Assembly (NCBI GenBank): GCA_030017875.1
Contig: JASEGQ010000011.1
Location: 1 to 16,594, forward strand
Length of the DNA stretch: 16,594 nucleotides
Direction of reading: 5' to 3'
Source: Candidatus Aenigmatarchaeota archaeon
GTDB taxonomy: Archaea > Aenigmatarchaeota > Aenigmatarchaeia > CG10238-14 > SCSR01
Below, in pieces: positions 2,045 through 14,736 of the stretch. The notes under the pieces were generated by a model that saw only the letters and a program-made list of their open reading frames with translations, was not told the DNA's origin and made no database searches. Position 1 is the first letter of the stretch. Each line of letters begins with the position of its first letter. Both the position numbers and the translations under genes were made by a program.

Positions 2045-2620
2045 TTACGGAGTCAAACGTTTCAGTTCGTAATAGGTTACGTCTCCCTCTTTATCACAAA
2101 CAGCCCACCACATTGTCGCTCTTATATTATGCGCAAGTCTTACAGCTCTTGACATTTCTGGCAAGGAAAAGGCTGATTCTTCTGCAACAGCTTGGACGAT
2201 GGCCATTGTGTGTTCATGCGGAGCTTTAGGACCTCTCTTTAATTTTACACCCCTTTCATAAATTCTAAAGTGGGCACCAAATTTGTAGCCAGTTTTAACC
2301 AGATAGCCTCTATTTCTTAAATCGCGGTAAACAATAAACTGAGGATGGAACTGATTAACATTTTTACTTCCAATTTCCATTAACTTCTGAAAATCAATTT
2401 TTTTCTTCTTCCCATTTTCTTTAACATAAGCTTTCAACTTTCCTTTTTCGATTAAATACGCGGCTTCGATCAATTCTAGTTCTAATCTATCAGGATTTTC
2501 TTCTGGTTGAGGCTTTCCATATCCAGATTCATCGTATAGAGAAACAGCCTCAGGGCTCCAGATTATCACCCTATTCTCTAGCAGTTCACCTTCCCAAACT
2601 TTTTCTGCCACATCTATCAA
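2045..2620 (-). CDS. endA: tRNA-splicing endonuclease subunit (EndA family)
   Basis: 191 aa, TTG start, TAA stop. The C-terminal catalytic domain aligns without gaps to M. jannaschii EndA as I recall it: YRDLRNRGYLVKTGYKFGAHFRIYERG (Tyr present), PHEHTMAIV (His present), RLAHNIRATMWWAVCDKEGDVTYY (Ala where the catalytic Lys is expected). Confidence 0.9.
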   Translation of the reverse strand: MIDVAEKVWEGELLENRVIIWSPEAVSLYDESGYGKPQPEENPDRLELELIEAAYLIEKGKLKAYVKENGKKKKIDFQKLMEIGSKNVNQFHPQFIVYRDLRNRGYLVKTGYKFGAHFRIYERGVKLKRGPKAPHEHTMAIVQAVAEESAFSLPEMSRAVRLAHNIRATMWWAVCDKEGDVTYYELKRLTP

Positions 2621-2865
2621 CGTTGTATTATTTATAAAAATTAAATTAAAAACTTAAATAAGACTTATTAAAATCTTCTATTCCTATTATTCCTAATTTT
2701 TATACATTCTTTTTCTAAAAATTTGATTTAGTTCTCTCTTCAACTTGTTAAACGTAAAAATTATGATACAAGCTAAAATGTAAGAAAATAAAATAGTTGG
2801 TGTAATCACCAAAGGAAAGCTAACTAATGCTCTCTGTTGCTTTTCTACCAATTAAAATACCTATA

Positions 2866-3288
2866 CTATTTTTGCATATACAAAAAGCCAACTAATACCA
2901 TCAGGATGAAAAGGAAAATAGGATTAAGCAAGATTCCTAACCCAATATAATTGAAAAGAGGACTAATATGGCAACGATCAAATCCTCCAAAAAACCCGAA
3001 AACTATAATAAAAGATAGTGGAAGGATCATTTTTTTAAGTTTTGCAGTTACTCGTGCATGTGTTGTAGGTGCTACTAATGGACCGGTAAGACTAAATATT
3101 GATATAAGTACAAAATGATAACCAGCTAAAATAAATGTAGCTACAATATTTCCTAAACATGTAGTTCTACACCATTCAGCAAAATATGGATAAAATGGTA
3201 AATTAAATAAGAAATTAATAAAAAGAAATAAAGGTATGAGTAAAATCATGCCTATTATTAGAGCAACTAGCATCTCGTACAATCCCAA
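2866..3288 (-). CDS. hypothetical multi-pass integral membrane protein
   Basis: 140-aa ORF that is almost entirely hydrophobic, with about 4 predicted TM segments. ATG start, TAG stop. No recognisable family motif. Confidence 0.5.
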   Translation of the reverse strand: MGLYEMLVALIIGMILLIPLFLFINFLFNLPFYPYFAEWCRTTCLGNIVATFILAGYHFVLISIFSLTGPLVAPTTHARVTAKLKKMILPLSFIIVFGFFGGFDRCHISPLFNYIGLGILLNPIFLFILMVLVGFLYMQK

Positions 3289-3379
3289 CTATCGCACCTT
3301 GAAATACTCTGGCCAGATTTTCTTTTCGACTATCGTCATCTTAACCATTATCTTATAAATTTCTATATTGATAAATTAT

Positions 3380-3910
3380 CTAATCAAACAGTCCTGCCTT
3401 TCTCTTACAACTCTTACAGACTTCCTTTGATTTTCTATCAACATCAAATATCGTATTTGAAAAGCTCATCACACAATTCGGATCTGGGCAATGTGTTAGG
3501 CCAAAGGCCATATGTCCTACTTCGTGAACAGCCTCTTTTACCGCTCTTTCTATTAGTAGTTTTTTGTTAAAAGCTTGCCTGTAAAAAGTCGGATTGAGTC
3601 TGCAAATGGAAATTACAGCGACTCTTCCGTTCATCTGTGCCTGACCAAAGACAAAGTTCAAGTCCTCAGCAAACAGGTCTTGATCTGTAACTGCCAAAAC
3701 CCTTCCCTTGAATTCTTCAAACAAGAAATCTAGAATTTGCGGTGCGACATACTGATGCCTGTAAGGATTGTAGTATTCTTTTGGTAAACCTTTTGGTTCA
3801 GAAATATCAGAAAATATTCTAAAGGAAAGTTCTAGTTCTTCACTAATGGCGCTTAGAACTTCTGTAGGGATTTCGCCAAACGGAACTATTTGTAATCTCA
3901 TAATTATCAA
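3380..3910 (-). CDS. amzA: archaemetzincin (zinc metallopeptidase)
   Basis: The diagnostic motif HEVGHMAFGLTHCPDPNCVMSF...CKSC matches the archaemetzincin signature (HExxHxxGxxxC, then CxM, then a CxxC pair). 176 aa, ATG start, TAG stop. Confidence 0.9.
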   Translation of the reverse strand: MIIMRLQIVPFGEIPTEVLSAISEELELSFRIFSDISEPKGLPKEYYNPYRHQYVAPQILDFLFEEFKGRVLAVTDQDLFAEDLNFVFGQAQMNGRVAVISICRLNPTFYRQAFNKKLLIERAVKEAVHEVGHMAFGLTHCPDPNCVMSFSNTIFDVDRKSKEVCKSCKRKAGLFD

Positions 3911-3955
3911 TCACTTTAAAAGTTTAAGAAGAGAGTGGGACAGGCGAGATTTGAA

Positions 3956-3977
3956 TTCGCGCAGGTTTTTTCCCTGT
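3956..3977 (-). other. tRNA-Phe intron 3 (22 nt, between positions 53 and 54, T arm)
   Basis: Intron sequence is ACAGGGAAAAAACCUGCGCGAA. The central helix pairs exon C48-G51 (CGCG) with intron CGCG at 4 of 4. The 5' bulge is AG|A and the 3' bulge is AA|U. The inner helix is CAGG/CCUG with loop GAAAAAA. Removal restores the T stem GCGAG/CUCGC and the loop UUCAAAU. Confidence 0.8.
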
Positions 3978-4000
3978 CTCGCGACACATCGGTCTTCAGC

Positions 4001-4017
4001 TTCAACGACAATAGCCT
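4001..4017 (-). other. tRNA-Phe intron 2 (17 nt, between positions 30 and 31, anticodon stem)
   Basis: Intron sequence is AGGCUAUUGUCGUUGAA. The central helix pairs exon C25 A26 A27 U28 with intron GUUG (3 Watson-Crick pairs plus one G-U). The 5' bulge is CG|A and the 3' bulge is AA|G. The inner helix is GGC/GUC with tetraloop UAUU. Removal gives the perfect anticodon stem. Confidence 0.8.
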
Positions 4018-4039
4018 CGATTGCTCTCCCGGACTGAGC

Positions 4040-4056
4040 TTACAGCATCAAATTGA
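4040..4056 (-). other. tRNA-Phe intron 1 (17 nt, between positions 9 and 10)
   Basis: Intron sequence is UCAAUUUGAUGCUGUAA. The central helix pairs exon A4-G7 (ACAG) with intron CUGU at 4 of 4. The 5' bulge is UA|U and the 3' bulge is AA|G. The outer helix pairs G1-G3 with C11-C13. Removal joins U8 A9 to G10 of the D stem. Confidence 0.75.
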
Positions 4057-4098
4057 TACTGTCCCCAGCTGTCCCATATTTATTATTCCATTGATAGC

Positions 4099-4107
4099 AT
4101 TATTAAA
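4099..4107 (-). promoter_or_regulatory. candidate TATA box for the tRNA-Phe gene
   Basis: Minus-strand TTTAATAAT lies 24-32 nt upstream of position 4075. That would place the transcription start near 4075 and give a leader of roughly 10 nt ahead of mature G1 at 4065. Confidence 0.3.
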
Positions 4108-4955: not shown

Positions 4956-5054
4956 TCAACGTAAAATTTGCAAAATCAAGCCACAAATTTTCATAGATAC
5001 TTAAATGCTTTAAAGCTTATGATAGTTAGAGAAATTTCTATCGATTGAAAGGAT

Positions 5055-6128
5055 CTACGGTAAAAATTCTTGATTTTTAATTTTTGTTGGTAAGTACTCT
5101 TCTGTAATAAATCTCAAACCTCTACCAGACAGAGCTTCTATTTCTGCTTTTATCTTCTTTTGAATTAAAAGTTTCAGCTCCTTTTGCCATGCTGGATGTT
5201 TAAACCATTCATACTTTAACATCTCCTGTGCCCTTTTTATATCGACCTCTGTTGCCCTTTCTGTGAACTTTTGTAATCCAAACCTTTCTATGTCAGAGAT
5301 GGTCATTCCAATAAACTTTGCGTTTATTGTGCCAAGCCTATCTGAGATATGCGCAAGTGTTATACTGCCATATTTTATAACAGAATAGATATACCAACCC
5401 CATGAATTCGCATCTGTAAGAACATAAACAGGAAGGTTATGTTCTAGCGACAATCTCTGTATCAACCTCCTAACACCTCTTGCGGCCTGGCCCTGACTTG
5501 TAACAAGTATCGACTTATGCTTTTGCCAGAACCTGTCCTCATTCAGCCTCTCATAAACTGCATTTTTTTCCACGACTAAAACAAAATCTGCGTCTACCTT
5601 TTTGAGTTTTATATCTTCAACAACACTTGGCACACCCCATCCACCAGAGCCCATCTTTGAACAGTCAATCGTATCTCCTCTGTCTACGATCACCAATTTT
5701 CCAGCAACTTTGCCTCTAACATCTGCTGCAAGATGTAGTTGCTCTCTCAATATATTAAGGGCAACTTCTAAGTCTACGATGATTGAGTTGCTCTCCACTT
5801 GAGTTTCAAATATGTTTTCGTCTGAATTAGGTAGGGTTCTTTTAAGCGCATAATATGCATCTCTAATGCTGGTGTGGATATTTTCCTTTAGTAGCTCATT
5901 ACAGAATGATGCCATAACTAGAGTTTGCATGAATTTTTTTGCATGTGCTGTATGAAAGAAAAACCTTTTAGCACTTTTCTCCCCCAGAGTTAGCATTCCT
6001 GTCTTTGGGTCATGTATGACATTGCTCAAAGCTCTGATCGGAATATCTATATTTGGGTTCACCCCCTTATCTACATCCTTCAAAATTTTTTCCCCCAAGC
6101 CCCCAAGCTTTTTCTCAGCTTCCTTCAA
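5055..6128 (-). CDS. top6A: DNA topoisomerase VI subunit A (Spo11 family)
   Basis: Catalytic-Tyr region IRDAYYALKR. Toprim motifs VLVVEKNAVYERL and VLTDANSWGWYIY. 357 aa, located directly downstream of top6B on the same strand. TAG stop. Confidence 0.95.
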   Translation of the reverse strand: MKEAEKKLGGLGEKILKDVDKGVNPNIDIPIRALSNVIHDPKTGMLTLGEKSAKRFFFHTAHAKKFMQTLVMASFCNELLKENIHTSIRDAYYALKRTLPNSDENIFETQVESNSIIVDLEVALNILREQLHLAADVRGKVAGKLVIVDRGDTIDCSKMGSGGWGVPSVVEDIKLKKVDADFVLVVEKNAVYERLNEDRFWQKHKSILVTSQGQAARGVRRLIQRLSLEHNLPVYVLTDANSWGWYIYSVIKYGSITLAHISDRLGTINAKFIGMTISDIERFGLQKFTERATEVDIKRAQEMLKYEWFKHPAWQKELKLLIQKKIKAEIEALSGRGLRFITEEYLPTKIKNQEFLP

Positions 6129-6172
6129 CTCTCTTCACCTCTTTCACTGCTTTCTCAGGCCCAGCGAATTCT

Positions 6173-7747
6173 TTATTTTTCTAACCCTGTTTTTATTTCA
6201 ACCCTTCTCTTTATCATATCCTCAAGCCTACTTAAAATAGTTTTTTGATCTTTTCTGGTTAGTTTAGCTAGTGATTCGGAAACTACTGGAATATACCTCT
6301 CAAATATTTGTTTTCTTAAGAACTTTTCTCTTGCTCTTCTTTTCTGGCTGATATATTTTGCAAGTTTTCTTCCTGCGTCTTGAAGGGCAAGCTTGATCTC
6401 TCTAACTATTTCAGGATAGTTTGCGATCGCTTGCTTTCCTTCAGTAGTAAAAGGAACCCACACAGAAGCAAAATGAACAAGAATCACTAAAGGCCCTATG
6501 GGCAAAGCTCCTGCAGGTTGCTGTAGGCCATATCTTCTCCAATCCACCTCTGTAATAGCTTCAGTTATCGCACAATCGCTCTGATGGTATAACAAAGGAA
6601 CCTTGTTTGCAAATCTAAATATCTTAACAGTTTCATTTAGCGGAAGGTTTCCTCCATAAGCTAAGCCAACTGAGATTTGAAAAGGATTTCCTCTATAAAC
6701 TGTTGGAGGCCTGGAAATCGCAACAAAATGTTCTGCTTCTATCTCTTTTTTCAAGCCTTCTGTGATTAAACTCTCGGTAAGAGGGGAAAGACAATCAGTT
6801 GGTGGAGCAATTAGTTTAACCATTTGCATTGCTTTGTGCAGTCTGTCAGATTCCTCTGTGTTTAGATCTTGAGGCTTTCTACTATGCTCAAGCTTTGCTA
6901 GCTTGCATACCTGCTCTGCAGAGCTTCTCCCCACACGACAGAATTCTGTTGTTAAGAAACTAATGAGATTTTTTGCTTTTGTGGCTGAAAGCATTCTTCT
7001 TAAAATTCCAAGCTCAATCCCATGTGGATGAGGCTTGATTTCTTTTGGCTGTTTTGGTAGTTCATTGGTTACTCTTTTGAACTCGGCCTTACCGCTCGGT
7101 CCATCAAAAAAAATATTAGCATGAGGATTTGCTATTGCAGTCTGCTTGATGTATTCGAGAATTGACTGGCCCTTTTCTACGTACCTTCCTTCAACTTCCA
7201 TCTCAACTTTTACGCCGTGCCATTTCTCAGGATTTTTCTCCTTTTTATGGGAAATTACATTAGGCTCATTCTTCGTCACATCTATCATCAACTCGAAAAT
7301 ATGCTTGTCTTTTCCAGTACTTGTTGTTACACTTACAGGTTTTCCTGTTGTTAGCTGGGAGTACAAAACTGCGCCGTGAATCCCAACCCCCATTATGCCG
7401 CGGGTCTGTCTCAATTTGTGGAACTTGCTTCCGAAAAGAAGCTTCCCAAAAGCAAAAGGGACTTTTGATTCGATTATTCCTGGCCCATTGTCTTCTATCA
7501 CAACTTTAAATCTGTTTACACCAACCTGCTTTAGTGAGATGAATATTTCTGGCAAAATCCCTGCATCCTGTGTTGCATCTAAGCTATTATCTAGCCCTTC
7601 CTTGACAACTGTTACTAGAGACTTGGTCGGATTTTCGTACCCAAGAAAGTGCTTATTTTTATTTCGTCTTGCCTATTGCAAGATTTCGAAAAATTCAGCT
7701 ATACTTATCTCTTTCATGTCTTTTGCCAATTCTTCTGCTGTAATCAT
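6173..7747 (-). CDS. top6B: DNA topoisomerase VI subunit B, two exons (7747..7685 joined to 7660..6173), 516 aa after removal of a 24-nt BHB intron
   Basis: The ORF track starts at TTG 7555, downstream of the GHKL N-box EGLDNSLDA (7600..7574), so the real gene must begin further upstream. An ATG at 7747 preceded by GGAGGTGA opens the same frame as MITAEELAKDMKEISIAEFFE. That frame then hits TAG at 7675..7673. Deleting 7684..7661 keeps the frame and gives [34 protein letters not shown]. Confidence 0.85.
7661..7684 (-). other. 24-nt bulge-helix-bulge intron within the top6B coding sequence (contains the in-frame TAG)
   Basis: RNA reads UUU UUCG AA|A UCUUGC AAUAG GCAAGA CGAA AU|A AAA. The outer helix is UUU/AAA. 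The central helix UUCG (7690..7687) pairs with CGAA (7666..7663) at 4 of 4. Two 3-nt bulges lie on opposite strands. The inner helix has 6 bp and the loop AAUAG holds the UAG. This geometry matches the tRNA introns in this window. Confidence 0.75.
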
Positions 7748-7760
7748 CTCAACCACTACT

Positions 7761-7768
7761 TCACCTCC
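7761..7768 (-). promoter_or_regulatory. Shine-Dalgarno-like site for top6B
   Basis: Minus-strand GGAGGTGA lies 13 nt upstream of ATG 7747, in the 27-nt gap after the KH-protein stop codon. Confidence 0.4.
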
Positions 7769-7774
7769 ATATTT

Positions 7775-8266: not shown

Positions 8267-9003
8267 TCTAATCCCGCCATGGCTGAAAACCTTTTGAATA
8301 GCTCCTCTTCATTTTTTATTTTGACATTCAATGCCTTGAAATACGAGTTAACATTTTTTATGTCTCTCCTTAAAAACTCTGAAGCTAGTTGATGTTTTAA
8401 CGGTACAGCTTGGCTGAAATCGATAATGTACGGCTTACCCCAAATCAAGATGTTGTAAGCACTCAAATCCGAATGAATCAAGCCAGATCTTAAAATTTTT
8501 TCCACCTCGTTCAAAATAAACTCATAAACTCCTTGCTTATCTCTATTCTCTAGTTTGACATCGATCAGTCTTGGAGCAAGTTTCCCATCTTCCCCGATGA
8601 ACTCTATTACTAGGATGTTTTCGTTGAACGCGATTGGCTTTGGGCAGCTCACCCCAGCTTCGTGAGCAATCGTCAAATTTTTGAACTCCCTTTTACACCA
8701 GTTCAAGATCACTGCTCTTCTACTCTTTTTGACACTAGAAAATCTCGGATCCCCAACCAGATATTTCCACATACTCTTGAAATCGCAGTATTCAGCTCTA
8801 TAAACCTTTAAAGCCAGCCAATTATCGTTCTTATCTTTAGCTGAAAAAACAACGGACTCCTTGCCCTCCTTTGCAACACCCTCCACAGATTTGATTATAC
8901 CTTTGTTTAGCAGTTTGTATATCGCAAGCAGCGTTCTTTCATCAAAAACCTTTCTCTCTATTTTTAATTCTTTGACATCTTCCAATCTTATTTTCGGTTT
9001 CAA
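8263..9003 (-). CDS. rio1: RIO-type serine/threonine protein kinase (Rio1-like)
   Basis: Shows the nucleotide-binding Lys (LALKVYR), the catalytic loop LIHSDLSAYNILI and the metal-binding motif IIDFSQAV. 246 aa. Confidence 0.9.
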   Translation of the reverse strand: MKPKIRLEDVKELKIERKVFDERTLLAIYKLLNKGIIKSVEGVAKEGKESVVFSAKDKNDNWLALKVYRAEYCDFKSMWKYLVGDPRFSSVKKSRRAVILNWCKREFKNLTIAHEAGVSCPKPIAFNENILVIEFIGEDGKLAPRLIDVKLENRDKQGVYEFILNEVEKILRSGLIHSDLSAYNILIWGKPYIIDFSQAVPLKHQLASEFLRRDIKNVNSYFKALNVKIKNEEELFKRFSAMAGLE

Positions 9004-9045
9004 ATCAGTTCGCCTAATTGTAAATTAATTCTAAGATGATAAGAG

Positions 9046-9372
9046 TTATTCAATAGAAATAGTCTTAACAAACCCTTTCCTTCTGAGCCAATTCGCTTGA
9101 GTCGGGGTGTATCTAAAAATTATATCCCCTCTTTCCTCGCTCTGGACCTTCCAAGGCTGGATTAAAATTAAGTCACCGATTTTGACCCAAACTTTCTTTC
9201 TTAGCCTGCCAGGAATTCTGCAAATTCTTGTGTTGCCATCATCACACTTTCCTCTCACTTTGTCTGCCCCAAGCATCATCTCTACCACGCCTAAAACCTC
9301 TCCCTGTCTAGGGATTCTAATTCTCGCTACCTCTAGCTCTTCTGGAGTTGGTTCAAACTTCTTTTTTCCCAA
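9046..9372 (-). CDS. eif1a: translation initiation factor aIF1A
   Basis: 108 aa with an S1/OB-fold core GEVLGVVEMMLGADKVRGKCDDGNTRICRIPGRLRKKVWVKIGDLILIQPW, typical of eIF1A/aIF1A. Confidence 0.9.
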   Translation of the reverse strand: MGKKKFEPTPEELEVARIRIPRQGEVLGVVEMMLGADKVRGKCDDGNTRICRIPGRLRKKVWVKIGDLILIQPWKVQSEERGDIIFRYTPTQANWLRRKGFVKTISIE

Positions 9373-10047
9373 TCAACCACCGATTGAAACCAAAATTGTA
9401 TCCTTATAAACTTTTTTTCCTCTTATACTACCACTTAGCTTTCTTGAGATTTTAATATTTGCTTTGAGCTTATTCTTCAGGTTTTTTGCAATCTCAAGAG
9501 CAGACCTTTTCGAGCCTATATAAACGTCAAAGCCGTTAGCAACCTCCTCGTACCTTGAAATAAAAGCGAGGTTGTCGTATTGGCTTAGAATATTGATCCG
9601 CTCTTCTATTTCTTTTGAAATTTTTCCTAGAAGATTTTCTGGAGCTCTTACTTGCAGAATTGATTGGTAATAGCCTATAGACCTCATAGAGCATGCTCTG
9701 CAGGTAATTTTTTTTATTATCAGATTCGAAATTTTTTCTTCGGTTTTTTCCAAGTCAGCAATTTTCAAATTTAAATTGATATGCACTTTTTTATCTTCAA
9801 TTCTATAAATTGCTTTTTTTATTTCTGGTTGTATCAACAAATTCGAAAGAATTGATTCTAGAGCATTCTCAACACTGGCAGCTCTGTTGTCTGAAAATGT
9901 TCTGTTGCAAGATTTACATCTCTTGATAACAATTCTATCAGGAATTAGTTTTGAAAAAGAGATTTTTGATAAGAAGCAATCCTTGCATAAATTCTCATAA
10001 AACTTTTCTGCTGTCTTTCCGCACTTCGGACAAAATTTTCTGCTCAT
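9373..10047 (-). CDS. NMD3-family protein (archaeal large-subunit biogenesis/export factor homologue)
   Basis: N-terminal CxxC pairs CPKCGK...CKDCF...CKSCNR...CRACS with NMD3-like spacing. 224 aa. The stop codon abuts the aIF1A start. Confidence 0.65.
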   Translation of the reverse strand: MSRKFCPKCGKTAEKFYENLCKDCFLSKISFSKLIPDRIVIKRCKSCNRTFSDNRAASVENALESILSNLLIQPEIKKAIYRIEDKKVHINLNLKIADLEKTEEKISNLIIKKITCRACSMRSIGYYQSILQVRAPENLLGKISKEIEERINILSQYDNLAFISRYEEVANGFDVYIGSKRSALEIAKNLKNKLKANIKISRKLSGSIRGKKVYKDTILVSIGG

Positions 10048-10069
10048 AATGAAAACTTATATTCTCTAG

Positions 10070-10996
10070 TTAAGTTTTTGCTAGGAGCACCACTCTGCTA
10101 GCCAAATCCTCGTCTTTAATTTTATACCCAGCAGATTCTGATAGATTTTGGGCAAATTTTCTAATGTCGTCCATCGTAGGCATCGCAGCTCTTGGCAATC
10201 TTTTCTGAGCTTCTCCTACATGAAAAAAAGCTTTAGCCTCTATGAAGTCTGGCTCTGCTCTTAATATAAGCTTTGCATATTTTTCTGGTTCTTTGAGATT
10301 AAGTTCTTTTACAAGAGTAAGCCTAATAACTTTTCTACAACTAAAACTTCTCATCAGTTCTAAACTTTCCATCTGTTTTTCCCAAGCATTTGGGACTAGT
10401 GGGTTGTCGACTTTAATAAAAGTTTGTTTGTCTGGAGCACAAAGGGAGATATAAAAATTTGTTGGTTCAACTTCTAAATTCATTATTTTCTCTGGAAGAG
10501 TACCCTTTGTTAAAAGAAAGGTTGTGAAATTTCTTTTGTGAAATTCTTTTAATAGCTCTGAAATTTTTGGATATAGCAAGCTTTCGCCAATAAGACTTAA
10601 TGCAGCGTTATTTGGGTATTGAGCTTCTTCATATTTTTTTCTATCAATACTTGGATTTCCCTTGAAACCTGTTAAAAGCAATCTTTGTTGTTTAATCAAT
10701 TCTTCTATAATCTCAGCAGGCTCATCTATTTCCATACTTTCCATATTTTGCTCAAAGAAAGGATGGAAGGTTCTCCAGCAGTAGACGCATCTGTTTAGGC
10801 AAAACAAACTAACTGTGCATTGCAAGCATCTATGACTTTCAACTCCGTACCATCTTTTGAAGCAATTTCTACCGCGGCTAATGCTTTCCTTTGTCCACTT
10901 ACAAATTTTTACTGCAGAATGCTGATTTTTACCGACAAATCTATAGCCTTGTTTCTCATAAATTTTTTTAAATTCCTCCGGGATCTTATTAGGCAT
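10070..10996 (-). CDS. taw1: tRNA 4-demethylwyosine synthase (TYW1/Taw1, radical SAM)
   Basis: HSAVKICKWTKESI..CFKRWYGVESHRCLQ is the auxiliary-cluster region and CLNRCVYCW is the radical-SAM CxxxCxxC motif. 308 aa, comparable with archaeal Taw1. Confidence 0.85.
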   Translation of the reverse strand: MPNKIPEEFKKIYEKQGYRFVGKNQHSAVKICKWTKESISRGRNCFKRWYGVESHRCLQCTVSLFCLNRCVYCWRTFHPFFEQNMESMEIDEPAEIIEELIKQQRLLLTGFKGNPSIDRKKYEEAQYPNNAALSLIGESLLYPKISELLKEFHKRNFTTFLLTKGTLPEKIMNLEVEPTNFYISLCAPDKQTFIKVDNPLVPNAWEKQMESLELMRSFSCRKVIRLTLVKELNLKEPEKYAKLILRAEPDFIEAKAFFHVGEAQKRLPRAAMPTMDDIRKFAQNLSESAGYKIKDEDLASRVVLLAKT

Positions 10997-11058
10997 ATTT
11001 TTAAGTTTTATTGCAAAATATTTATTAAGCCCTGGTAGCTCAGCTGGTAGAGCAACTG

Positions 11059-11071
11059 TCGAACGGTTGAG
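11059..11071 (+). other. tRNA-Thr intron 1 (13 nt, between positions 30 and 31)
   Basis: Intron sequence is UCGAACGGUUGAG. The central helix pairs exon C25 A26 A27 C28 with intron GUUG (11066..11069) at 4 of 4. The 5' bulge is UG|U and the 3' bulge is AG|A. The outer helix pairs G22 A23 G24 with C32 U33 U34. The intron interior is only a small loop. Confidence 0.7.
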
Positions 11072-11078
11072 ACTTGTA

Positions 11079-11109
11079 ACTGATCATCTGAAGAAGATTA
11101 TGGCAATTG
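11079..11109 (+). other. tRNA-Thr intron 2 (31 nt, canonical 37/38 position)
   Basis: Exon U33 U34 G35 pairs with intron CAA (11104..11106), and C32 faces U, so the central helix is 3 of 4. The 5' bulge is UA|A and the 3' bulge is UG|A. The inner helix is short and wobble-rich. This is a relaxed BHB stacked on the anticodon stem. Confidence 0.65.
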
Positions 11110-11387
11110 ATCAGTAGGTCGCGAGTTCGAGTCTCGCCCAGGGCTTAGTATTATCAGAATTAACAACATGTTTTATTCTGTTATGTAGTACCGGTAAGAG
11201 TAGGCCTGGCTGAATTGCTGAAATGTATTGTGGATGTCAACTTATGCGTCCTAACAACGCATAAAATTTGTTCACAATAAGCTTGCGAAAATGTCTACGC
11301 TGTTATATTGTGAGGTTAAAACCTAGGGAAAATGTCATAAGTTCCATTAAACGTAAGCTTTAAACAGATAAACTACATTCTTATGGG

Positions 11388-12191
11388 TTGAAATTTCAGA
11401 AATATGGTTTAAAGAAGGTGAGCATCTTGAAAACTGAATTATACGAAGTGATGGATTATACAAGAAAGATGATCCCTAAGATAACAGATCTCGTAAATGA
11501 TCTTTTCGATGTTATGCCGCCAAAAATAGATATAATCTTCGGTACACCTTCAGCAATTAAGGGTTATACAGAGGGTTGTTGTAATCCAAAGGCATTCGCT
11601 TTCTATTTTTCTCCATCTTTCTCTGGAGGTCCATTTATTCTTCATCAAATACACGTTCAGTTAGAGATTGTGCAACGCTATAACAAATTGTTTGGCCTAG
11701 AGGTGGAACCAAAACATTTTTCTCTGTCAACCCTTTCTCACGAATACGCCCATTACCTTTTTGATTGGATGCATAGATTTAAATTGTCTAAAGAAACGGA
11801 AAGAATTCTTAAAAGAATGATATCAAAGAAGTGTAAAACTCTGAAGGAGTATACAGAAGCTGTCAAATACTTCATTATCAAAGGAAAAGTTGAGGCAGTT
11901 GGGGAGGTAGCCAGAAGGGAAATAATAAATGCTTTTAATTATTCCGAGGACCTCAATTCTCTAGAAGAAATTGCTGGACGGGTAGGTAAATATAAAGTGA
12001 GAATAACTGGAGAAGTGGAGCGTATAGTGCCCTACATACTTACAATATTAGGGAGGTATTATGCAGATACGATACCTAAAGGAAAAAAAGAATTCCAAGA
12101 ATTTGTCCGTAAAAACCCATTGGCTGTCGAAAAAAGAGATTTAGTTGAAGCATCGACAATCTTAGATGCAGAGTTCTCATCTTTTATTTAG
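11388..12191 (+). CDS. hypothetical protein with an HExxH motif (putative zinc metallopeptidase)
   Basis: 267-codon ORF from TTG 11388, with an alternative in-frame ATG at 11448. It contains LSHEYAHYLFDW. TAG stop, followed by a hairpin terminator. I cannot assign a family. Confidence 0.5.
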   Translation: MKFQKYGLKKVSILKTELYEVMDYTRKMIPKITDLVNDLFDVMPPKIDIIFGTPSAIKGYTEGCCNPKAFAFYFSPSFSGGPFILHQIHVQLEIVQRYNKLFGLEVEPKHFSLSTLSHEYAHYLFDWMHRFKLSKETERILKRMISKKCKTLKEYTEAVKYFIIKGKVEAVGEVARREIINAFNYSEDLNSLEEIAGRVGKYKVRITGEVERIVPYILTILGRYYADTIPKGKKEFQEFVRKNPLAVEKRDLVEASTILDAEFSSFI

Positions 12192-12220
12192 CGTATAGCC
12201 TATTTCCTGATTAAAATTCA

Positions 12221-12437: not shown

Positions 12438-13499
12438 TTAGCTTTTTTCTAAAAAATCAACATCCAGAAGCGAAGACAATTTTGCTATTCCAAAATTTTT
12501 GATTAAGGTAAAGGCAAGAGGTCTGTCCTGTATTTTATAAAAAATTTTTTTCATAATCATCCCAAGCCTGATTGGATTAGCCAGTTTCTTTTTCCATTCT
12601 TTCTCATAATTTTCAAACAAAAATTTTTCAGAGAAATCGTTCGATTCTAATGCTGCAATGCAGGCTTTACCAGCAAGCCCTGCTCCAACCTTGCCGTAGA
12701 TTAACCCTCCTGCGGAAAAGGGTTTCACCTGGCAAGCAGCATCCCCAACAAGCAGAACATTATCTGCTACGGACTTTTTAATCAAGCCATATCTCATTAC
12801 ATCTCCAGTTCTGTTGGTTGTTTCAATCCTACCAATTATTTTTTTCAAAAATTTTTCGAGATAGATACTTGGGTTTTCAAAGGCCATTAAACCGATTCTT
12901 GCTATTTCTTCATTCTCAGGGACAACCCAGGCAAACGATCCAGGAGCAACCTCAGAACCAAACCATAGCTTTACAGTATCAGAGTCGAAATTTGATTTTG
13001 CATTCACTTGAGTAGCTTTCAACAAATTACCCGGTAGTTTAAGGCCAGAAACTTTTGCAACTGTTGAATTTGGCCCATCAGCTCCAACTAAAAGACTTGT
13101 TTCATAAGCTCCTTTCGTCGTGATTACTTTTCTGTTCCTGAAATCTAAAAATCTGGTCGAGAGTTTAAATTTTGCTCCAGCTTTTTTTGCTTTTCTTCCA
13201 AGGTACTTATCATATTTTTTTCTGTCGATTAGATAAACAGGCTTTTTTGATTTGATTTCAAAATAATTATTCTTGGAATAAAATCTAGCTTTTTTTATTT
13301 TGTTAACAATTATTTCTTTTGGTATTTTTCCGATCCTATGACTCACCAAGCCTGTGCATTGAACAGGTTCACCAATTTCCGAATGTTCTTCGAGAATCAG
13401 CACATCATAGCCCTTTCTTGCAACTATCTCTCCGGTTATACAACCAGAAGGACCTGCACCAACTATAACAACATCCACCCTATCTACCGGTTCTGTCAA
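12438..13499 (-). CDS. geranylgeranyl reductase family flavoprotein (digeranylgeranylglycerophospholipid reductase-like)
   Basis: N-terminal FAD fingerprint VVIVGAGPSGC..E, and LVGDAACQVKPFSAGGL, typical of archaeal GGR. 353 aa, TTG start (an alternative GTG lies a few codons in), TAA stop. Confidence 0.85.
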   Translation of the reverse strand: MTEPVDRVDVVIVGAGPSGCITGEIVARKGYDVLILEEHSEIGEPVQCTGLVSHRIGKIPKEIIVNKIKKARFYSKNNYFEIKSKKPVYLIDRKKYDKYLGRKAKKAGAKFKLSTRFLDFRNRKVITTKGAYETSLLVGADGPNSTVAKVSGLKLPGNLLKATQVNAKSNFDSDTVKLWFGSEVAPGSFAWVVPENEEIARIGLMAFENPSIYLEKFLKKIIGRIETTNRTGDVMRYGLIKKSVADNVLLVGDAACQVKPFSAGGLIYGKVGAGLAGKACIAALESNDFSEKFLFENYEKEWKKKLANPIRLGMIMKKIFYKIQDRPLAFTLIKNFGIAKLSSLLDVDFLEKS

Positions 13500-13656
13500 C
13501 CTAACTATTTAAGCTAAGTTAACTCTGAAGCCTGATTTAAATCTTCAACTTTCGGCAGTCTACTCCCCGAACCACAGAGCCATCCCAAGTTTTAGTATGT
13601 TTATACTTGAATTTAAATCCCTATTAATTCTTAATTCTTAATCTACATCTTTCACA

Positions 13657-13716
13657 TTCTAGAGCTTCTCTTTCAGGTTTCCATTAACATATCCACATCT
13701 GGAGCAAGCTCTAGAA
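13657..13716. repeat. long inverted repeat in a 270-nt unassigned spacer
   Basis: TTCTAGAGCTT (13657..13667) is perfectly complementary to AAGCTCTAGAA (13706..13716). With a 1-nt bulge the pairing extends by CTCT/GGAG. On the plus strand the repeat is followed by TTTTT (13719..13723). Confidence 0.5.
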
Positions 13717-13771
13717 GCTTTTTGTAAGAGGTAAAATAAACTAAAAATTGAATAACTCTTGAAATTATATT

Positions 13772-14480
13772 CTATCTACCAAACTTTCTCTGAACAGAAT
13801 TATACCATCTAATTGCTTTTATTAATTCTTTCTTAGAAAAATCGGGCCAAAGTGTTTTGGTAACGTAAAATTCTGCGTAGGATGCTTGCCACAGCATAAA
13901 GTTTGATAATCTGCTAAACCCTCCAGTCCTAATTAGCAAGTCTATTGGCAACGGAACTAGCAAATTTTTTTCTATATCTTTTTCTGTTATTTCTATCTTA
14001 CCTGTCCTTATAATCTTCTCAGCTATTTTTCTCATGGTCTCAGTTAGCTCAAACTTGCTCCCATAAGCTACCAAGAAGTTGATAACATGTTTTTGATATT
14101 TGGCAGTTTTCTGCATTATTTTGCCCATCAGCCTAACAAGCTTTGGAGGCAATCGTTTCAAATCTCCAACAAATCTAACCTTTATTTCATATTTTTCCAG
14201 AATTGGCTTCTTTTTCTCCCAAGATTCTAACATTTCATAAGCTAGTTTGAATATTTCGTTCAATTCTCTTTTCGGTCTGTTCAGATTTTCTGTTGACAGC
14301 ACATAAACAGATATCTGGGGTATACCAAGCTCTAGGCACCAGTCTAAAAATTTGTCAAATACTTTACATCCTTGTCTATGACCATACCATACTGGCATTC
14401 CTCTTTTAAGGGCCCATCTTCTGTCTACGGGCTAAAGGCTTTCCGTCTATGATGATGCCCAAATGATTCGGAACTTTCAT
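13772..14480 (-). CDS. uppS: cis-prenyltransferase (undecaprenyl/dehydrodolichyl diphosphate synthase family), two exons (14480..14441 joined to 14424..13772), 230 aa after removal of a 16-nt BHB intron
   Basis: The track ORF (208 aa) starts at [10 protein letters not shown] and lacks the family's N-terminal substrate-binding motif. Upstream, in a different frame, ATG 14480 encodes [13 protein letters not shown]. Removing 14440..14425 fuses the frames into [32 protein letters not shown], the conserved DGNRRWA...GH..G signature. Total length is 693 nt, or 231 codons including the stop. Confidence 0.85.
14425..14440 (-). other. 16-nt bulge-helix-bulge intron within the uppS coding sequence (frame-correcting)
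   Basis: RNA reads ACGG AA|A GC CUUUA GC CCGU AG|A. The central helix ACGG (14446..14443) pairs with CCGU (14430..14427) at 4 of 4. The 5' bulge is AA|A and the 3' bulge is AG|A. The inner helix is GC/GC with loop CUUUA. The outer helix is weak, with only one G-C pair. Confidence 0.75.
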
Positions 14481-14510
14481 ATCCTTCACTTTAAATTGAA
14501 TATTGAAAAG

Positions 14511-14520
14511 ATTTAAAAAT
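14511..14520 (+). promoter_or_regulatory. candidate TATA box for the tRNA-Trp gene
   Basis: ATTTAAAAAT lies about 29-38 nt upstream of the first tRNA nucleotide at 14549. Confidence 0.3.
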
Positions 14521-14557
14521 TAGTATTTACAAACTCAAAATTAAGTTTGGGGTTGTA

Positions 14558-14588
14558 TATAACGTGGGACGTTAAGCACGAAGTTGTA
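14558..14588 (+). other. tRNA-Trp 5' intervening sequence (31 nt; exact register ambiguous within the GTTGTA direct repeat)
   Basis: This stretch must be removed to join the acceptor stem plus U8 A9 to the D stem AGAU. It is flanked by the direct repeat GTTGTA (14552..14557 and 14583..14588). It contains the hairpin UAACG-UGGGA-CGUUA. In no allowed register could I fold a convincing BHB by hand. Confidence 0.45.
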
Positions 14589-14618
14589 AGATAGCTTGGT
14601 TAGTCTATCAGGCTCCAG

Positions 14619-14655
14619 AGATATTTTGGAGCATTGATACCAGATGAAAGAAGAA
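14619..14655 (+). other. tRNA-Trp anticodon-loop intervening sequence (37 nt, 37/38)
   Basis: In the canonical register the central helix is CUCC/GAAG at 3 of 4 (one C-A mismatch), with 5' bulge AG|A and 3' bulge AA|A. A competing perfect pairing exists between CUCCA (14613..14617) and intron UGGAG (14627..14631). Confidence 0.55.
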
Positions 14656-14736
14656 ACCTGAAAACGAGGGTTCAAATCCCTCCAACCCCATCCAGGCTTT
14701 TATTCATTGCAATGTTGATAGGATGTATCGGATAGT

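What the first reader, a model, noticed from the sequence alone, without database searches (positions are those of the whole stretch)
2045..14690. System-level observation: BHB splicing extended from tRNAs into essential mRNAs, with the endonuclease encoded alongside
Within 16.6 kb I count nine short intervening sequences (13-37 nt). Seven are in three tRNA genes and two are in protein-coding genes.

Seven of the nine obey the same hand-checked rule. The four nucleotides at -6..-3 of the 5' splice site pair with the four at -6..-3 of the 3' splice site. Each site is followed by a 3-nt bulge that is cut after its second base.

Features shared by both mRNA introns:
- Each lies within the first about 30 codons.
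- Each forces unspliced message to terminate after 24 codons.
- Each interrupts a gene normally considered indispensable: the type IIB topoisomerase and the polyprenyl carrier synthase.

Inference: in this organism EndA plus an RNA ligase (RtcB-type, not in this window) would be required for the expression of protein genes. The short 5'-proximal introns could act as an obligatory checkpoint or regulatory step.

The 30/31 introns of tRNA-Phe and tRNA-Thr use the same exon helix (CAAY paired to GUUG). This points to either common descent or intron spread.
Basis: inference. Interest (0 to 1): 0.85.

Follow-up and report, generated by a model that had tools for sequence, protein, structure and literature searches.

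The report
Tiny tRNA-type introns inside protein genes
In this stretch of an uncultivated DPANN archaeon (Aenigmatarchaeota), two essential protein genes and three tRNA genes are interrupted by 13-37-base inserts of the kind the tRNA-splicing enzyme removes. Until now such introns were documented inside only one archaeal protein gene (cbf5).

Summary
All nine short inserts are at the stated places: three in tRNA-Phe, two in tRNA-Thr, two in tRNA-Trp, a 24-nt insert in top6B and a 16-nt insert in uppS.

Removing them gives clean cloverleaf tRNAs. It also restores the conserved AEFFE|KNKH motif in Top6B and the DG|NRRW motif in UppS.

Six of the nine fit the bulge-helix-bulge (BHB) rule exactly, not seven. 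Two more, both at 37/38, fit 3 of 4 helix pairs. The tRNA-Trp acceptor-stem insert does not fit.

The decisive evidence is comparative:
- An independent assembly carries the same inserts.
- Diverged relatives (about 72% protein identity) have an insert at exactly the same site in top6B (three sequence variants) and in uppS (16 vs 21 nt).
- In these relatives the central helix and 5' bulge are unchanged, the 3' bulge is nearly so, and the inner hairpin shows compensatory changes.
- The closest relatives lack the inserts precisely.

These are therefore real BHB pre-mRNA introns, new members of the kind known from crenarchaeal cbf5.

The neighbouring endA gene is real, but it sits in the same place in intron-free relatives. 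The whole clade's EndA lacks the canonical catalytic lysine.

The "checkpoint" idea has no support. RNA-level proof is still missing.

The parts
2045..2620 (-). endA, tRNA-splicing endonuclease. It is a single alpha-type unit of 191 aa.
   Evidence: Pfam tRNA_int_endo_N plus tRNA_int_endo. The best solved relative is the M. jannaschii homotetrameric EndA, 1A79, E = 3e-29. It has a 6-aa Lys-rich insert (LKRGPK) just before the catalytic His. The canonical catalytic Lys is replaced by Ala.
3936..4065 (-). tRNA-Phe(GAA) gene, 130 nt, with three introns.
   Evidence: The spliced 74-nt product gives a perfect ARAGORN cloverleaf. The intron-free ortholog in L001 is at 15826-15900.
4040..4056 (-). 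tRNA-Phe intron 1, 17 nt, at position 9/10.
   Evidence: H ACAG/CUGU, bulges UAU and AAG.
4001..4017 (-). tRNA-Phe intron 2, 17 nt, at position 30/31.
   Evidence: H CAAU/GUUG with one G-U pair.
3956..3977 (-). tRNA-Phe intron 3, 22 nt, at position 53/54.
   Evidence: H CGCG/CGCG, h' CAGG/CCUG. L084 has an intron at the same site with H CGGG/CCUG.
5055..6128 (-). top6A (Spo11-type subunit), intact partner gene of top6B.
   Evidence: Pfam TP6A_N, Topo_VI_alpha and Toprim.
6173..7660 (-). top6B exon 2, from codon K22 (ATG numbering) to the stop.
   Evidence: Translation and Pfam.
7661..7684 (-). top6B BHB intron, 24 nt: AUCUUGCAAUAGGCAAGACGAAAU.
   Evidence: Strict hBHBh': h UUU/AAA, H UUCG/CGAA, bulges AA|A and AU|A, h' UCUUGC/GCAAGA. 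Identical in the Logan assembly L081. Homologous introns at the same site in L082/L210 and L083 carry 3 compensatory pairs, and 39 of 39 cells are paired. Absent from L001 and 9 other relatives.
7685..7756 (-). top6B exon 1. The start is GTG 7756 or ATG 7747. It ends ...ISIAEFFE.
11029..11145 (+). tRNA-Thr(UGU) gene, 117 nt, with two introns.
   Evidence: Rfam 52.5 bits. The spliced 73-nt product gives a perfect cloverleaf. The intron-free ortholog is L001 6673-6744.
11059..11071 (+). tRNA-Thr intron 1, 13 nt, at position 30/31.
   Evidence: H CAAC/GUUG closed by a 5-nt loop.
11079..11109 (+). tRNA-Thr intron 2, 31 nt, at the canonical position 37/38.
   Evidence: H CUUG/CAAU has 3 of 4 pairs. 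L084 has an intron of 32 nt at the same position.
13772..14424 (-). uppS exon 2 (..NRRWALKRG... to the stop).
14425..14440 (-). uppS BHB intron, 16 nt: AGCCUUUAGCCCGUAG. It sits in phase 1 of codon N14.
   Evidence: H ACGG/CCGU, bulges AA|A and AG|A, h' GC/GC. This is the relaxed HBh' form. Identical in Logan L089. L087 and L088 have a 21-nt intron at the same site with the same H and 5' bulge (3' bulge AUA instead of AGA) and a different h' (GAUCU/AGGUC). Absent from L001.
14441..14480 (-). uppS exon 1 ([13 protein letters not shown] plus the first base of N14).
14549..14690 (+). tRNA-Trp(CCA) gene, 142 nt, with two inserts.
   Evidence: The spliced 74-nt product gives a perfect cloverleaf. 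Relatives start with the same GGGGUUGUA and have no acceptor-stem insert.
14558..14588 (+). tRNA-Trp insert 1, 31 nt, in the acceptor stem/position 9-10 region. The register is ambiguous, from 14552-14582 to 14558-14588.
   Evidence: Flanked by the 6-nt direct repeat GTTGTA. No BHB in any register. It contains the hairpin UAACGU-GGG-ACGUUA.
14619..14655 (+). tRNA-Trp intron 2, 37 nt, at position 37/38.
   Evidence: H CUCC/GAAG has 3 of 4 pairs. The intron carries UUGGAGC, complementary to the anticodon loop, and an AGAUGA motif. Homologous introns occur in L001, L082, L084 and L087.

Best explanation
The 24-nt insert in top6B and the 16-nt insert in uppS are genuine archaeal bulge-helix-bulge (BHB) introns. 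They are the same class as the seven inserts in the three neighbouring tRNA genes.

**Shown by sequence**
- In the pre-mRNA, the last exon bases before the 5' splice site pair with the last intron bases before the 3' splice site. This forms a 4-bp helix: UUCG/CGAA in top6B and ACGG/CCGU in uppS.
- Each splice site lies in a 3-nt bulge. A small intron hairpin closes the motif.

**Inferred, not shown**
- The splicing endonuclease EndA cuts after the second base of each bulge.
- An RtcB-type ligase joins the exons and probably circularises the intron.

**Consequences**
- Splicing restores ...AEFFE|KNKHFLGYENP... in Topo VI-B and ...[10 protein letters not shown]... in the cis-prenyltransferase.
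- Unspliced RNA yields only a peptide of about 24-27 residues.
- A downstream restart would give a protein lacking the start of the ATPase domain (Top6B) or the catalytic Asp motif (UppS).

**Evolution and role**
- The top6B intron is inherited within a sub-clade of Aenigmatarchaeota and has been lost cleanly several times. It could alternatively have been regained at the same site.
- The mRNA introns are most likely tolerated selfish or neutral insertions. They persist where protein constraint keeps the exon half of the motif fixed. They are probably not regulators.
For: 1. **Precise restoration.** Excision at the BHB-predicted bonds recreates sequences identical to those of intron-free relatives. 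It also raises Pfam coverage. Prenyltransf goes from profile positions 17-219 at 204 bits to 1-219 at 232 bits. HATPase_c goes from 21.4 bits, below the threshold, to 34.9 bits, above it.
2. **Not an assembly error.** The Logan assemblies of SRR23186779 (L081, L089) carry both introns unchanged. They differ from the window by 6 and 4 SNPs elsewhere.
3. **Same-site homologous introns in diverged lineages.**
   - top6B: L082 (Logan) and L210 (ENA) have AUCCUAGAAUAAUUAGGACGAAAU. L083 has AUCUUGUUAUAAGCAAGACGAAAU.
   - uppS: L087 (JGI) and L088 (Logan) have a 21-nt intron.
4. **Structure conservation.** On the three top6B variants, 39 of 39 pair cells are standard pairs and 3 pairs show changes on both sides. 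Slid controls reach at most 61.5%. In uppS, H and the 5' bulge are conserved, the 3' bulge differs by one base (AGA vs AUA), and the inner hairpin differs in length and sequence.
5. **Every variant blocks read-through.** All four in-frame variants (the three top6B introns and the 21-nt uppS intron of L087/L088) carry an in-frame stop, and the window's 16-nt uppS intron shifts the frame into an early stop. Read-through cannot make the protein.
6. **BHB splicing is active in this genome.** Seven tRNA inserts must be removed to give cloverleafs, and four of them fit the same rule.
7. **Statistics.** p = 5e-10, or 3e-7 with register freedom, for six or more of nine homology-defined sites obeying the rule.
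8. **endA is present**.
9. **Patchy distribution.** In the Top6B tree, intron-bearing and intron-free lineages are interleaved. This is the pattern described for cbf5 (PMC2738675).
Against: - There is no RNA evidence, neither junction reads nor intron circles.
- The uppS motif is relaxed. The inner hairpin has only 2 bp in the window, and the outer exon-exon helix is essentially a single G-C pair.
- Covariation rests on three top6B variants and two uppS variants. In the shuffle control, 26 of 500 shuffles reach the observed value.
- The only endA seen lacks the canonical catalytic lysine (AHNIRA instead of AHSVRK). Its activity, or the need for a second subunit, is unproven.
- No ligase gene is in the window.
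- Three of the nine inserts do not fit the strict rule.
- A second, intact top6B or uppS copy elsewhere in the genome cannot be excluded.
Confidence: 0.85

Rival explanations
1. The inserts are assembly or sequencing artefacts, that is small spurious insertions in a low-quality contig.
For: This is a metagenomic contig. The closest genome representative, L001, lacks all of the top6B, uppS, Thr and Phe inserts.
Against: - The same inserts appear in an independent Logan assembly that differs from the window by SNPs elsewhere.
- Homologous inserts lie at the same sites in four other samples from three data sources, with structure-preserving changes.
- The inserts form exact BHB geometry.
Confidence: 0.01
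2. top6B and uppS are pseudogenes in decay. The inserts are disabling mutations, and function is supplied by other copies or by a host.
For: DPANN archaea have reduced genomes and many lost functions. Gene callers do output truncated proteins of 460 and 208 aa. A second copy cannot be excluded from 16.6 kb.
Against: - Apart from the insert, both genes are full length, without further stops or frameshifts, and 72-83% identical to intact orthologs.
- The same insert site and RNA structure persist across lineages that have diverged by about 28% in protein sequence. A disabling lesion would not be conserved in this way.
- The partner gene top6A is intact.
Confidence: 0.04
3. The gaps are skipped during translation by ribosomal bypassing or hopping, as in phage T4 gene 60. 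They are not removed from the RNA.
For: T4 gene 60 is also a topoisomerase subunit. Its coding gap is short and has a hairpin and a stop (own knowledge). Both inserts here have a hairpin and a stop or frameshift.
Against: - No matched take-off and landing codons restore the conserved frame. For top6B the only downstream GAA would land in the wrong frame. For uppS there is none (read from the sequence).
- The stop is not adjacent to the take-off codon.
- The conserved feature is the BHB geometry, which bypassing does not require.
- The same genome needs BHB excision for three tRNAs.
Confidence: 0.02
4. The introns are real, and beyond that they have been selected as an obligatory checkpoint or regulatory switch that couples expression of essential genes to EndA and ligase activity.
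For: - Both introns are 5'-proximal, at codons 14 and 21-24, and cause early termination if not spliced.
- In Haloferax, removal of a BHB intron in the HVO_1309 5' UTR appears to matter for expression (PMC7714728).
Against: - Sister lineages manage without the introns: P0002 and P0003 next to the window, P0120 next to P0093, and L001.
- Only two cases exist, so the 5' bias is not testable.
- No conserved element beyond the splicing motif itself is seen in the 16-24-nt introns.
Confidence: 0.1

Closest known systems
BHB intron in the cbf5 (pseudouridine synthase) pre-mRNA of Crenarchaeota (Watanabe 2002; Yoshinari 2006; Yokobori 2009, PMC2738675)
   Same: - A short intron inside a protein-coding region.
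- Defined by a BHB-like, often relaxed, motif that EndA recognises.
- Patchy distribution explained by one gain and several clean losses.
- Causes mis-annotation of the gene.
   Different: - Different host genes (top6B, uppS).
- Different superphylum (DPANN, Aenigmatarchaeota) rather than the orders Desulfurococcales and Sulfolobales.
- The cbf5 case was tied to the heterotetrameric (alpha-beta)2 EndA. Here the only EndA seen is a single alpha-type unit closest to the M. jannaschii homotetramer, with a different insert and no canonical catalytic Lys.
- Two intron-bearing protein genes lie within 16.6 kb.
- As of 2020, cbf5 was described as the only coding-region example (PMC7714728).
BHB intron in the 5' UTR of HVO_1309 mRNA, Haloferax volcanii (Schwarz et al. 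2020, PMC7714728)
   Same: EndA acts on an mRNA, and excision appears to matter for expression.
   Different: That intron is in the untranslated leader, so it does not interrupt the reading frame. It occurs in a euryarchaeon.
Multiple and non-canonical tRNA introns of Thermoproteales and DPANN archaea (Marck & Grosjean 2003; Sugahara and Fujishima work; Kaneta et al. 2018, PMC5829648)
   Same: - Two or three introns per tRNA gene, at positions such as 9/10, 30/31 and 53/54.
- Strict and relaxed BHB forms occur side by side.
- Rapid turnover between close relatives.
- Association with EndA variants that carry extra loops.
   Different: Nothing essential differs for the tRNA part, which is a further instance of the known phenomenon. 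The Trp acceptor-stem insert does not fit any BHB form I could find.
IRE1/RtcB unconventional splicing of HAC1/XBP1 mRNA in eukaryotes (own knowledge; RtcB link in PMC8718801)
   Same: - It works in a similar way. A protein endonuclease cuts a small structured intron out of an mRNA and an RtcB-type ligase joins the exons.
- The 26-nt XBP1 intron changes the reading frame, as the 16-nt uppS intron does.
   Different: The nuclease is unrelated (IRE1 kinase/RNase). The motif is twin stem-loops rather than BHB. It is a regulated stress response, for which there is no evidence here.
Translational bypass of the 50-nt gap in phage T4 gene 60 (own knowledge)
   Same: A short untranslated gap with a hairpin and a stop in a topoisomerase subunit gene.
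   Different: There are no matching take-off and landing codons here. The RNA motif that is conserved is the BHB.

Membership tests
Archaeal BHB (bulge-helix-bulge) intron | A 4-bp central helix between the 5' exon end and the intron 3' end, flanked by two 3-nt bulges on opposite strands, each holding a splice site after its second base. | tested here: met
   Met for top6B (UUCG/CGAA; AAA, AUA), uppS (ACGG/CCGU; AAA, AGA), Phe 9/10, Phe 30/31, Phe 53/54 and Thr 30/31. Thr 37/38 and Trp 37/38 have 3 of 4 pairs. Trp acceptor-stem insert: not met.
Archaeal BHB (bulge-helix-bulge) intron | Outer helices h (exon-exon) and h' (intron-intron), giving the strict hBHBh' form. | tested here: inconclusive
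   top6B: met, with h of 3 bp and h' of 6 bp. uppS: h' is only 2 bp in the window and 5 bp in L087, and h is about 1 bp. That is the relaxed HBh' form.
Archaeal BHB (bulge-helix-bulge) intron | Excision at the predicted bonds restores a functional product. | tested here: met
   Cloverleaf tRNAs. Conserved protein motifs and full Pfam coverage are restored.
Archaeal BHB (bulge-helix-bulge) intron | The motif is maintained among homologous introns through compensatory change. | tested here: met
   top6B: 3 variants, 39 of 39 cells paired, 3 double changes. uppS: 2 variants with the same H and a different h'. Phe 53/54: H CGCG/CGCG versus CGGG/CCUG in L084. The sample is small.
Archaeal BHB (bulge-helix-bulge) intron | Cleavage by EndA giving 2',3'-cyclic phosphate and 5'-OH ends, ligation by RtcB, and a circular intron. 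| not testable with these tools
   No RNA data are available. No ligase gene is in the window.
cbf5-type archaeal pre-mRNA intron | A BHB intron inside a protein-coding sequence. | tested here: met
   top6B codon 21/22 and uppS codon 14.
cbf5-type archaeal pre-mRNA intron | The host gene is cbf5 and the lineage is Crenarchaeota with a heterotetrameric EndA. | tested here: not met
   The genes are top6B and uppS. The relatives are Aenigmatarchaeota. The EndA is closest to the M. jannaschii alpha4 type. A beta subunit was not searched for.
EndA splicing endonuclease, alpha (catalytic) unit | N-terminal and C-terminal catalytic EndA domains. | tested here: met
   PF02778 at 3.9e-17 and PF01974 at 2e-25. 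1A79 aligns over 8-169.
EndA splicing endonuclease, alpha (catalytic) unit | Catalytic triad Tyr-His-Lys (M. jannaschii Y115, H125, K156; numbering from my own knowledge). | tested here: not met
   Tyr (RIYERG) and His (HEHT) are present. The Lys position is Ala (AHNIRA versus AHSVRK) in the window and in all 18 Aenigmatarchaeota homologs aligned. A conserved Lys sits in the clade-specific insert L(K/V)(K/R/H)GPK.
EndA splicing endonuclease, alpha (catalytic) unit | An extra loop associated with broad substrate specificity (L1/CSL, L2/ASL or L3 of Kaneta et al. 2018). | tested here: inconclusive
   A 6-aa insert lies before the catalytic His, at the site where ARMAN-2 EndA (4FZ2) also has extra residues. 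Whether this equals the published L3 loop could not be verified from the text.
Programmed translational bypass (T4 gene 60 type) | Matching take-off and landing codons flanking the gap, with a stop immediately after take-off. | tested here: not met
   Read directly from the sequence. No matching codon pair restores the conserved frame in either gene.

The most novel reading that the evidence does not exclude
This Aenigmatarchaeota lineage may have let BHB mini-introns spread from tRNAs into many protein-coding genes, perhaps dozens per genome. EndA/RtcB splicing would then be a routine step of mRNA maturation in a prokaryote.

Its EndA would also have a rebuilt active site, with the catalytic lysine moved to a clade-specific loop. 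That change might underlie recognition of BHB motifs outside a tRNA context.

Recurrence of the same intron at the same conserved site in interleaved lineages would then reflect intron mobility (homing-like gain) rather than loss alone.
Probability: 0.25. Interest if true: 0.85.

Novelty: new member of a known kind. Interest (0 to 1): 0.62.

Why it matters
- **Scope of archaeal mRNA splicing.** In the literature I could search, splicing of protein-coding RNA in archaea has rested on a single gene, cbf5, in one phylum (PMC7714728, PMC2738675). Two further genes in a distant superphylum, within 16.6 kb, suggest the phenomenon is under-counted.
- **Annotation.** Gene callers silently output truncated proteins. 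Here Top6B lacks part of its ATPase domain and UppS lacks its catalytic Asp motif (P0001, P0121, P0054, P0093, P0238). This affects metabolic and "missing gene" inferences for DPANN genomes from metagenomes.
- **Intron evolution.** It gives a small, tractable system for intron gain and loss: 16-24-nt introns together with intron-free sister lineages.
- **Enzyme specificity.** It allows a test of what lets EndA act outside the tRNA context.

Tried and rejected
1. **ARAGORN on the raw window.** It found no tRNAs, so it is of no use for multi-intron genes. It only worked after manual splicing.
2. **Motif-only BHB scan.** A loose descriptor gives 518 hits against about 417 in shuffled sequence. 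A stricter one gives 90 against 56. The motif alone cannot find or validate introns, so I dropped it as a discovery tool.
3. **The single metagenome scan.** I used the pattern TTTTTYGARN{12,42}AARAAYMRNCAYYT. It was too degenerate for AT-rich DNA. A tighter pattern such as TTTTTCGAAAN{12,30}CGAAATAARAA should have been used.
4. **Search for further mRNA introns in about 90 related loci.** I looked for split HSPs, missing N-termini and stop-containing in-frame insertions. This recovered only the known top6B and uppS cases. One apparent split KH-domain gene in L003 is a scaffold gap of Ns.
5. **Hidden in-frame introns in the window's other genes.** Only 3-5-aa indels relative to orthologs were found.
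6. **Alternative parses of the tRNAs.**
   - tRNA-Thr read as a Phe tRNA, using the CTGAAGA inside its intron, would need a 4-nt intron. Rejected.
   - Splitting the Trp 37-nt intron into 15+22 or 25+12 nt gave no better BHB. Rejected.
7. **BHB with 2-4-nt bulges for the Trp acceptor-stem insert.** No convincing solution.
8. **Structure prediction of EndA.** Not run, because the tool returns no coordinates with which to test whether the loop lysine reaches the active site.

Full report
**1. What the window is**

The 16.6-kb window is AT-rich, about 36% G+C. Pfam assigns the following genes:
- a Pelota/eRF1-like protein
- EndA, 2045-2620(-)
- an M54 peptidase and a GT2 glycosyltransferase
- Topo VI-A, and Topo VI-B as a truncated ORF
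- a KH protein, RIO kinase, eIF1A and NMD3
- a wyosine radical-SAM enzyme and a geranylgeranyl reductase
- a cis-prenyltransferase (UppS), also as a truncated ORF
- PIMT, a ribose-1,5-bisphosphate isomerase-like IF-2B protein, and the start of a form III RuBisCO

Top6B relatives in species-representative genomes are nearly all labelled Candidatus Aenigmatarchaeota. The best, L001, is 78% identical and syntenic. The organism is therefore a DPANN archaeon of that group.

**2. The tRNA inserts**

ARAGORN sees no tRNA in the raw sequence. Rfam sees two over-long tRNAs. By hand I parsed three genes:

| Gene | Coordinates | Inserts |
|---|---|---|
| tRNA-Phe(GAA) | 3936-4065(-) | 17 nt at 9/10, 17 nt at 30/31, 22 nt at 53/54 |
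| tRNA-Thr(UGU) | 11029-11145(+) | 13 nt at 30/31, 31 nt at 37/38 |
| tRNA-Trp(CCA) | 14549-14690(+) | 31 nt in the acceptor-stem/9-10 region, 37 nt at 37/38 |

After these are removed, ARAGORN returns perfect cloverleafs with the expected anticodons.

The syntenic orthologs in L001 are intron-free for Thr (72 nt) and Phe (75 nt). L084 shares the Thr 37/38 and Phe 53/54 introns but lacks the others, and has an extra T-loop intron in Phe. Intron content thus turns over quickly between close relatives. This is known for Thermoproteales and has been noted for DPANN (PMC5829648).

**3. The two protein-gene inserts**

*top6B.* Upstream of the 460-aa ORF, in the same frame, the sequence reads MITAEELAKDMKEISIAEFFEILQ*ARRNKNKHFLGYENPTKSL.... 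Ten intron-free relatives all read ...AEFFEKN(R/K)H(L/F)LGYEN.... Removing 24 nt, 7661-7684(-), gives exactly that.

The RNA around it is a textbook hBHBh':

UUU[UUCG]AA|A[UCUUGC]AAUAG[GCAAGA][CGAA]AU|A AAA

It is also the minimum-free-energy fold, and it appears in my strictest scan.

*uppS.* The start [13 protein letters not shown] runs into a frameshift. Removing 16 nt, 14425-14440(-), gives ...[21 protein letters not shown]..., the universal cis-prenyltransferase motif. L001 has GACGGTAACAGAAGATGG where the window has GACGGAA[16 nt]ACAGAAGATGG.

The motif is [ACGG]AA|A[GC]CUUUA[GC][CCGU]AG|A. This is the relaxed HBh' form.

*Effect on Pfam scores.* Spliced products score better. Prenyltransf now covers profile positions 1-219 at 231.8 bits, against 17-219 at 204.3 bits. 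HATPase_c rises from 21.4 bits, below the gathering score, to 34.9 bits, above it.

**4. Is it more than chance?**

A loose descriptor matches 518 places in the window against about 417 in shuffled sequence. What is improbable is that inserts whose ends are fixed independently, by orthologs and by cloverleaf, obey it.
- A random site of the same length obeys the rule with p = 0.013.
- Six of the nine do, giving a binomial p of 5e-10, or 3e-7 if three registers are allowed per site.

I count six, not seven. Thr 37/38 (CUUG/CAAU) and Trp 37/38 (CUCC/GAAG) have one mismatch each. The Trp acceptor-stem insert has no BHB in any of its seven registers, even with 2-4-nt bulges.

**5. Comparative evidence (the decisive part)**

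Searching the protein collection with the spliced Top6B returned the window's own truncated 460-aa product from a Logan assembly (P0001). It also returned a few other N-terminally truncated relatives among about 120 full-length ones. Their contigs show the following.

*top6B*:
- L081 (SRR23186779) carries the identical intron in an assembly that differs from the window by 6 SNPs elsewhere.
- L082 (SRR30965920) and L210 (ENA ERZ27251159) are 72-73% identical in protein. Both carry AUCCUAGAAUAAUUAGGACGAAAU at the same site.
- L083 (SRR11722086), 72% identical, carries AUCUUGUUAUAAGCAAGACGAAAU.
- All three variants are 24 nt and contain an in-frame stop.
- All keep UUCG/CGAA and both bulges (AAA, AUA), and differ in the inner hairpin by compensatory changes.
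- On the named structure, 39 of 39 cells are standard pairs and three pairs change on both sides. Sliding the partner by 1-3 columns drops pairing to 38-62%.

*uppS*:
- The same approach found P0238 (208 aa, 73% identical).
- Its contigs L087 (JGI) and L088 (Logan) carry a 21-nt intron, AGAUCUAAUCAGGUCCCGUAU, in phase 1 of the same codon.
- It has the same ACGG/CCGU helix and the same AAA 5' bulge; its 3' bulge is AUA rather than the window's AGA. The inner hairpin is longer (GAUCU/AGGUC).
- The window's own intron recurs in Logan L089.

*Distribution.* A neighbour-joining tree of Top6B interleaves intron-bearing lineages (window; P0054/P0066; P0093) with intron-free sisters (P0002/P0003; L002; P0120; L001). 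That indicates one gain with several exact losses, or repeated gain at one site. It is the cbf5 pattern (PMC2738675).

**6. What this excludes**

- **Assembly error** is excluded by the independent assemblies and the homologous introns.
- **Pseudogenisation** is unlikely. Both genes are otherwise intact and conserved, and a lesion would not keep its position and RNA structure over about 28% protein divergence.
- **Ribosomal bypass** is unlikely. There are no matching take-off and landing codons that restore the frame.
- **Group I or II introns** are far too large to be candidates.

RNA-level excision itself remains unshown.

**7. How common is it nearby?**

I searched about 90 related loci, roughly 1.2 Mb, for three signatures: split alignments, missing N-termini encoded just upstream, and stop-containing in-frame insertions. 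Only the top6B and uppS cases came back. The window's other genes show no hidden in-frame inserts relative to orthologs.

Coding-region introns are therefore rare per gene. Two within 16.6 kb is notable, but it cannot be extrapolated without the whole genome.

**8. The endonuclease**

*Type and location.* The 191-aa EndA has both EndA domains and aligns end to end with the homotetrameric M. jannaschii enzyme 1A79. Its position next to these genes is not special. The same neighbourhood, including endA, exists in L084 and L001, which lack the mRNA introns.

*Two unusual features*, both shared by all 18 Aenigmatarchaeota homologs aligned:
- A six-residue, lysine-rich insert, GV(K/Q)-L(K/V)(K/R/H)GPK, lies immediately before the catalytic His. 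ARMAN-2 EndA also has extra residues at that site.
- The canonical catalytic Lys is replaced by Ala: AHNIRA instead of AHSVRK. The triad numbering Y115/H125/K156 is from my own knowledge of the 1998 structure paper.

*Published context.* Published work links extra loops carrying a key lysine to broad substrate specificity. It also notes loop-bearing alpha4-type EndAs in DPANN lineages with many disrupted tRNAs (PMC5829648, PMC2724299).

*Open question.* I could not test whether the loop lysine substitutes for the lost one, or whether a second subunit exists.

**9. Comparison with what is known**

The mechanism proposed is the one established for cbf5 pre-mRNA in Crenarchaeota: EndA recognition of a BHB-like motif.

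A 2020 study of EndA substrates states that cbf5 was then the only reported BHB intron in an archaeal mRNA, apart from the 5'-UTR intron that study itself described (PMC7714728). My full-text searches up to 2026 found no report of BHB introns in other archaeal protein genes or in DPANN. The searchable library is open-access only, so an unseen report cannot be excluded.

I therefore file the finding as new members of a known kind: new genes, a new superphylum and a different EndA type.

**10.

- "EndA plus ligase required for expression of these genes" is the logical consequence of the above and is very likely true.
- "Checkpoint or regulatory step" has no support. Sister lineages lack the introns.
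- The shared CAAY/GUUG of the two 30/31 tRNA introns is dictated by the conserved exon sequence (GAGCAAY). It does not discriminate common descent from convergence.
- "24 codons" for top6B depends on choosing ATG 7747 rather than the better-placed GTG 7756.

**11. Verdict**

- The regulatory gloss is unsupported.
- Interest is moderate to high. It depends on whether a genome-wide census shows a real expansion.

Noticed in passing
window 2045-2620(-); homologs in L001, L003, L004, L006, L007, L012, L016, L017, L021-L026, L028, L084, L085, L210: Every Aenigmatarchaeota EndA aligned has Ala where other EndAs have the catalytic Lys (AHNIRA versus AHSVRK). All carry a conserved Lys-containing 6-aa insert, L(K/V)(K/R/H)GPK, right before the catalytic His. 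This may be a relocated catalytic or specificity lysine, or a sign that a second subunit is needed.
   Followed up: partly
L003 951-4142 and L005 about 8303-11428: In two close relatives, top6B carries a large intein with a LAGLIDADG domain, inserted just before the NSLDA ATP-binding motif (Pfam Intein_splicing at 6e-22). It lies about 25 codons downstream of the BHB intron site. The N-terminus of this gene is a hotspot for selfish insertions.
   Followed up: partly
window 14552-14588: The 31-nt insert in the tRNA-Trp acceptor stem is flanked by a perfect 6-nt direct repeat (GTTGTA). It contains the hairpin UAACGU-GGG-ACGUUA and fits no BHB form. It is absent from tRNA-Trp in L001, L082, L084 and L087. 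How it is removed, if it is, is unexplained.
   Followed up: partly
window 14619-14661; L001 about 3700-3850(-), L082 7675-7787, L084 2173-2281(-), L087 7781-7899(-): The tRNA-Trp 37/38 intron carries UUGGAGC (AUGGAGC in relatives), complementary to the anticodon loop GCUCCAG. It also has box C-like (A/U)GAUGA motifs, with CUGA in the 3' exon. This resembles the box C/D guide known in euryarchaeal tRNA-Trp introns (own knowledge). L001 has two such UGAUGAUACC copies.
   Followed up: no
window 11079-11109: The tRNA-Thr 37/38 intron begins with ACUGAUCA, a copy of the anticodon-stem 5' strand that can pair with 8 bp of the 3' side. It also contains CUGAAGA, a Phe-type anticodon loop. It looks like a remnant of a duplicated or foreign anticodon arm.
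   Followed up: no
window 7747-7770(-): top6B probably starts at GTG 7756. That codon lies 4 nt downstream of a GGAGGTGA Shine-Dalgarno, and the N-terminus MVEM... matches relatives' MVEE.... The ATG at 7747 is less well placed.
   Followed up: partly
window 4956-5025(-): Just upstream of the GT2 gene start (MDKIGVLLPAYNEE), the same frame encodes MKICGLI followed by a stop. This resembles the N-terminus of the L082 homolog (MKVCGLIPAYNEE) and may be a partial duplication. The 51-nt gap has no BHB.
   Followed up: partly
window 7685/7684 and 14441/14440: Both mRNA introns have the same 5' splice context, CG(G)AA|A, with an AAA bulge. The window's own introns also both have a purine-rich 3' bulge (AUA in top6B, AGA in uppS). 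This may reflect an insertion or recognition preference.
   Followed up: no
L084 13440-13560: tRNA-Phe in L084 is missed by Rfam. It has introns at 53/54 and in the T-loop (about 59/60) but none at 9/10 or 30/31. tRNA-Thr in L082 (6556-6612) seems to have a D-loop insert. tRNA intron positions differ in nearly every relative examined.
   Followed up: partly
L087 11521-11582: A fluoride riboswitch (Rfam RF01734, 43.6 bits) lies in a related Aenigmatarchaeota contig. It is unrelated to the finding.
   Followed up: no
window 13500-13771: A gap of about 270 nt without an ORF separates uppS from the geranylgeranyl reductase gene. At this position L084 has a polyprenyl synthase gene (PF00348). That gene is missing or displaced here.
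   Followed up: no
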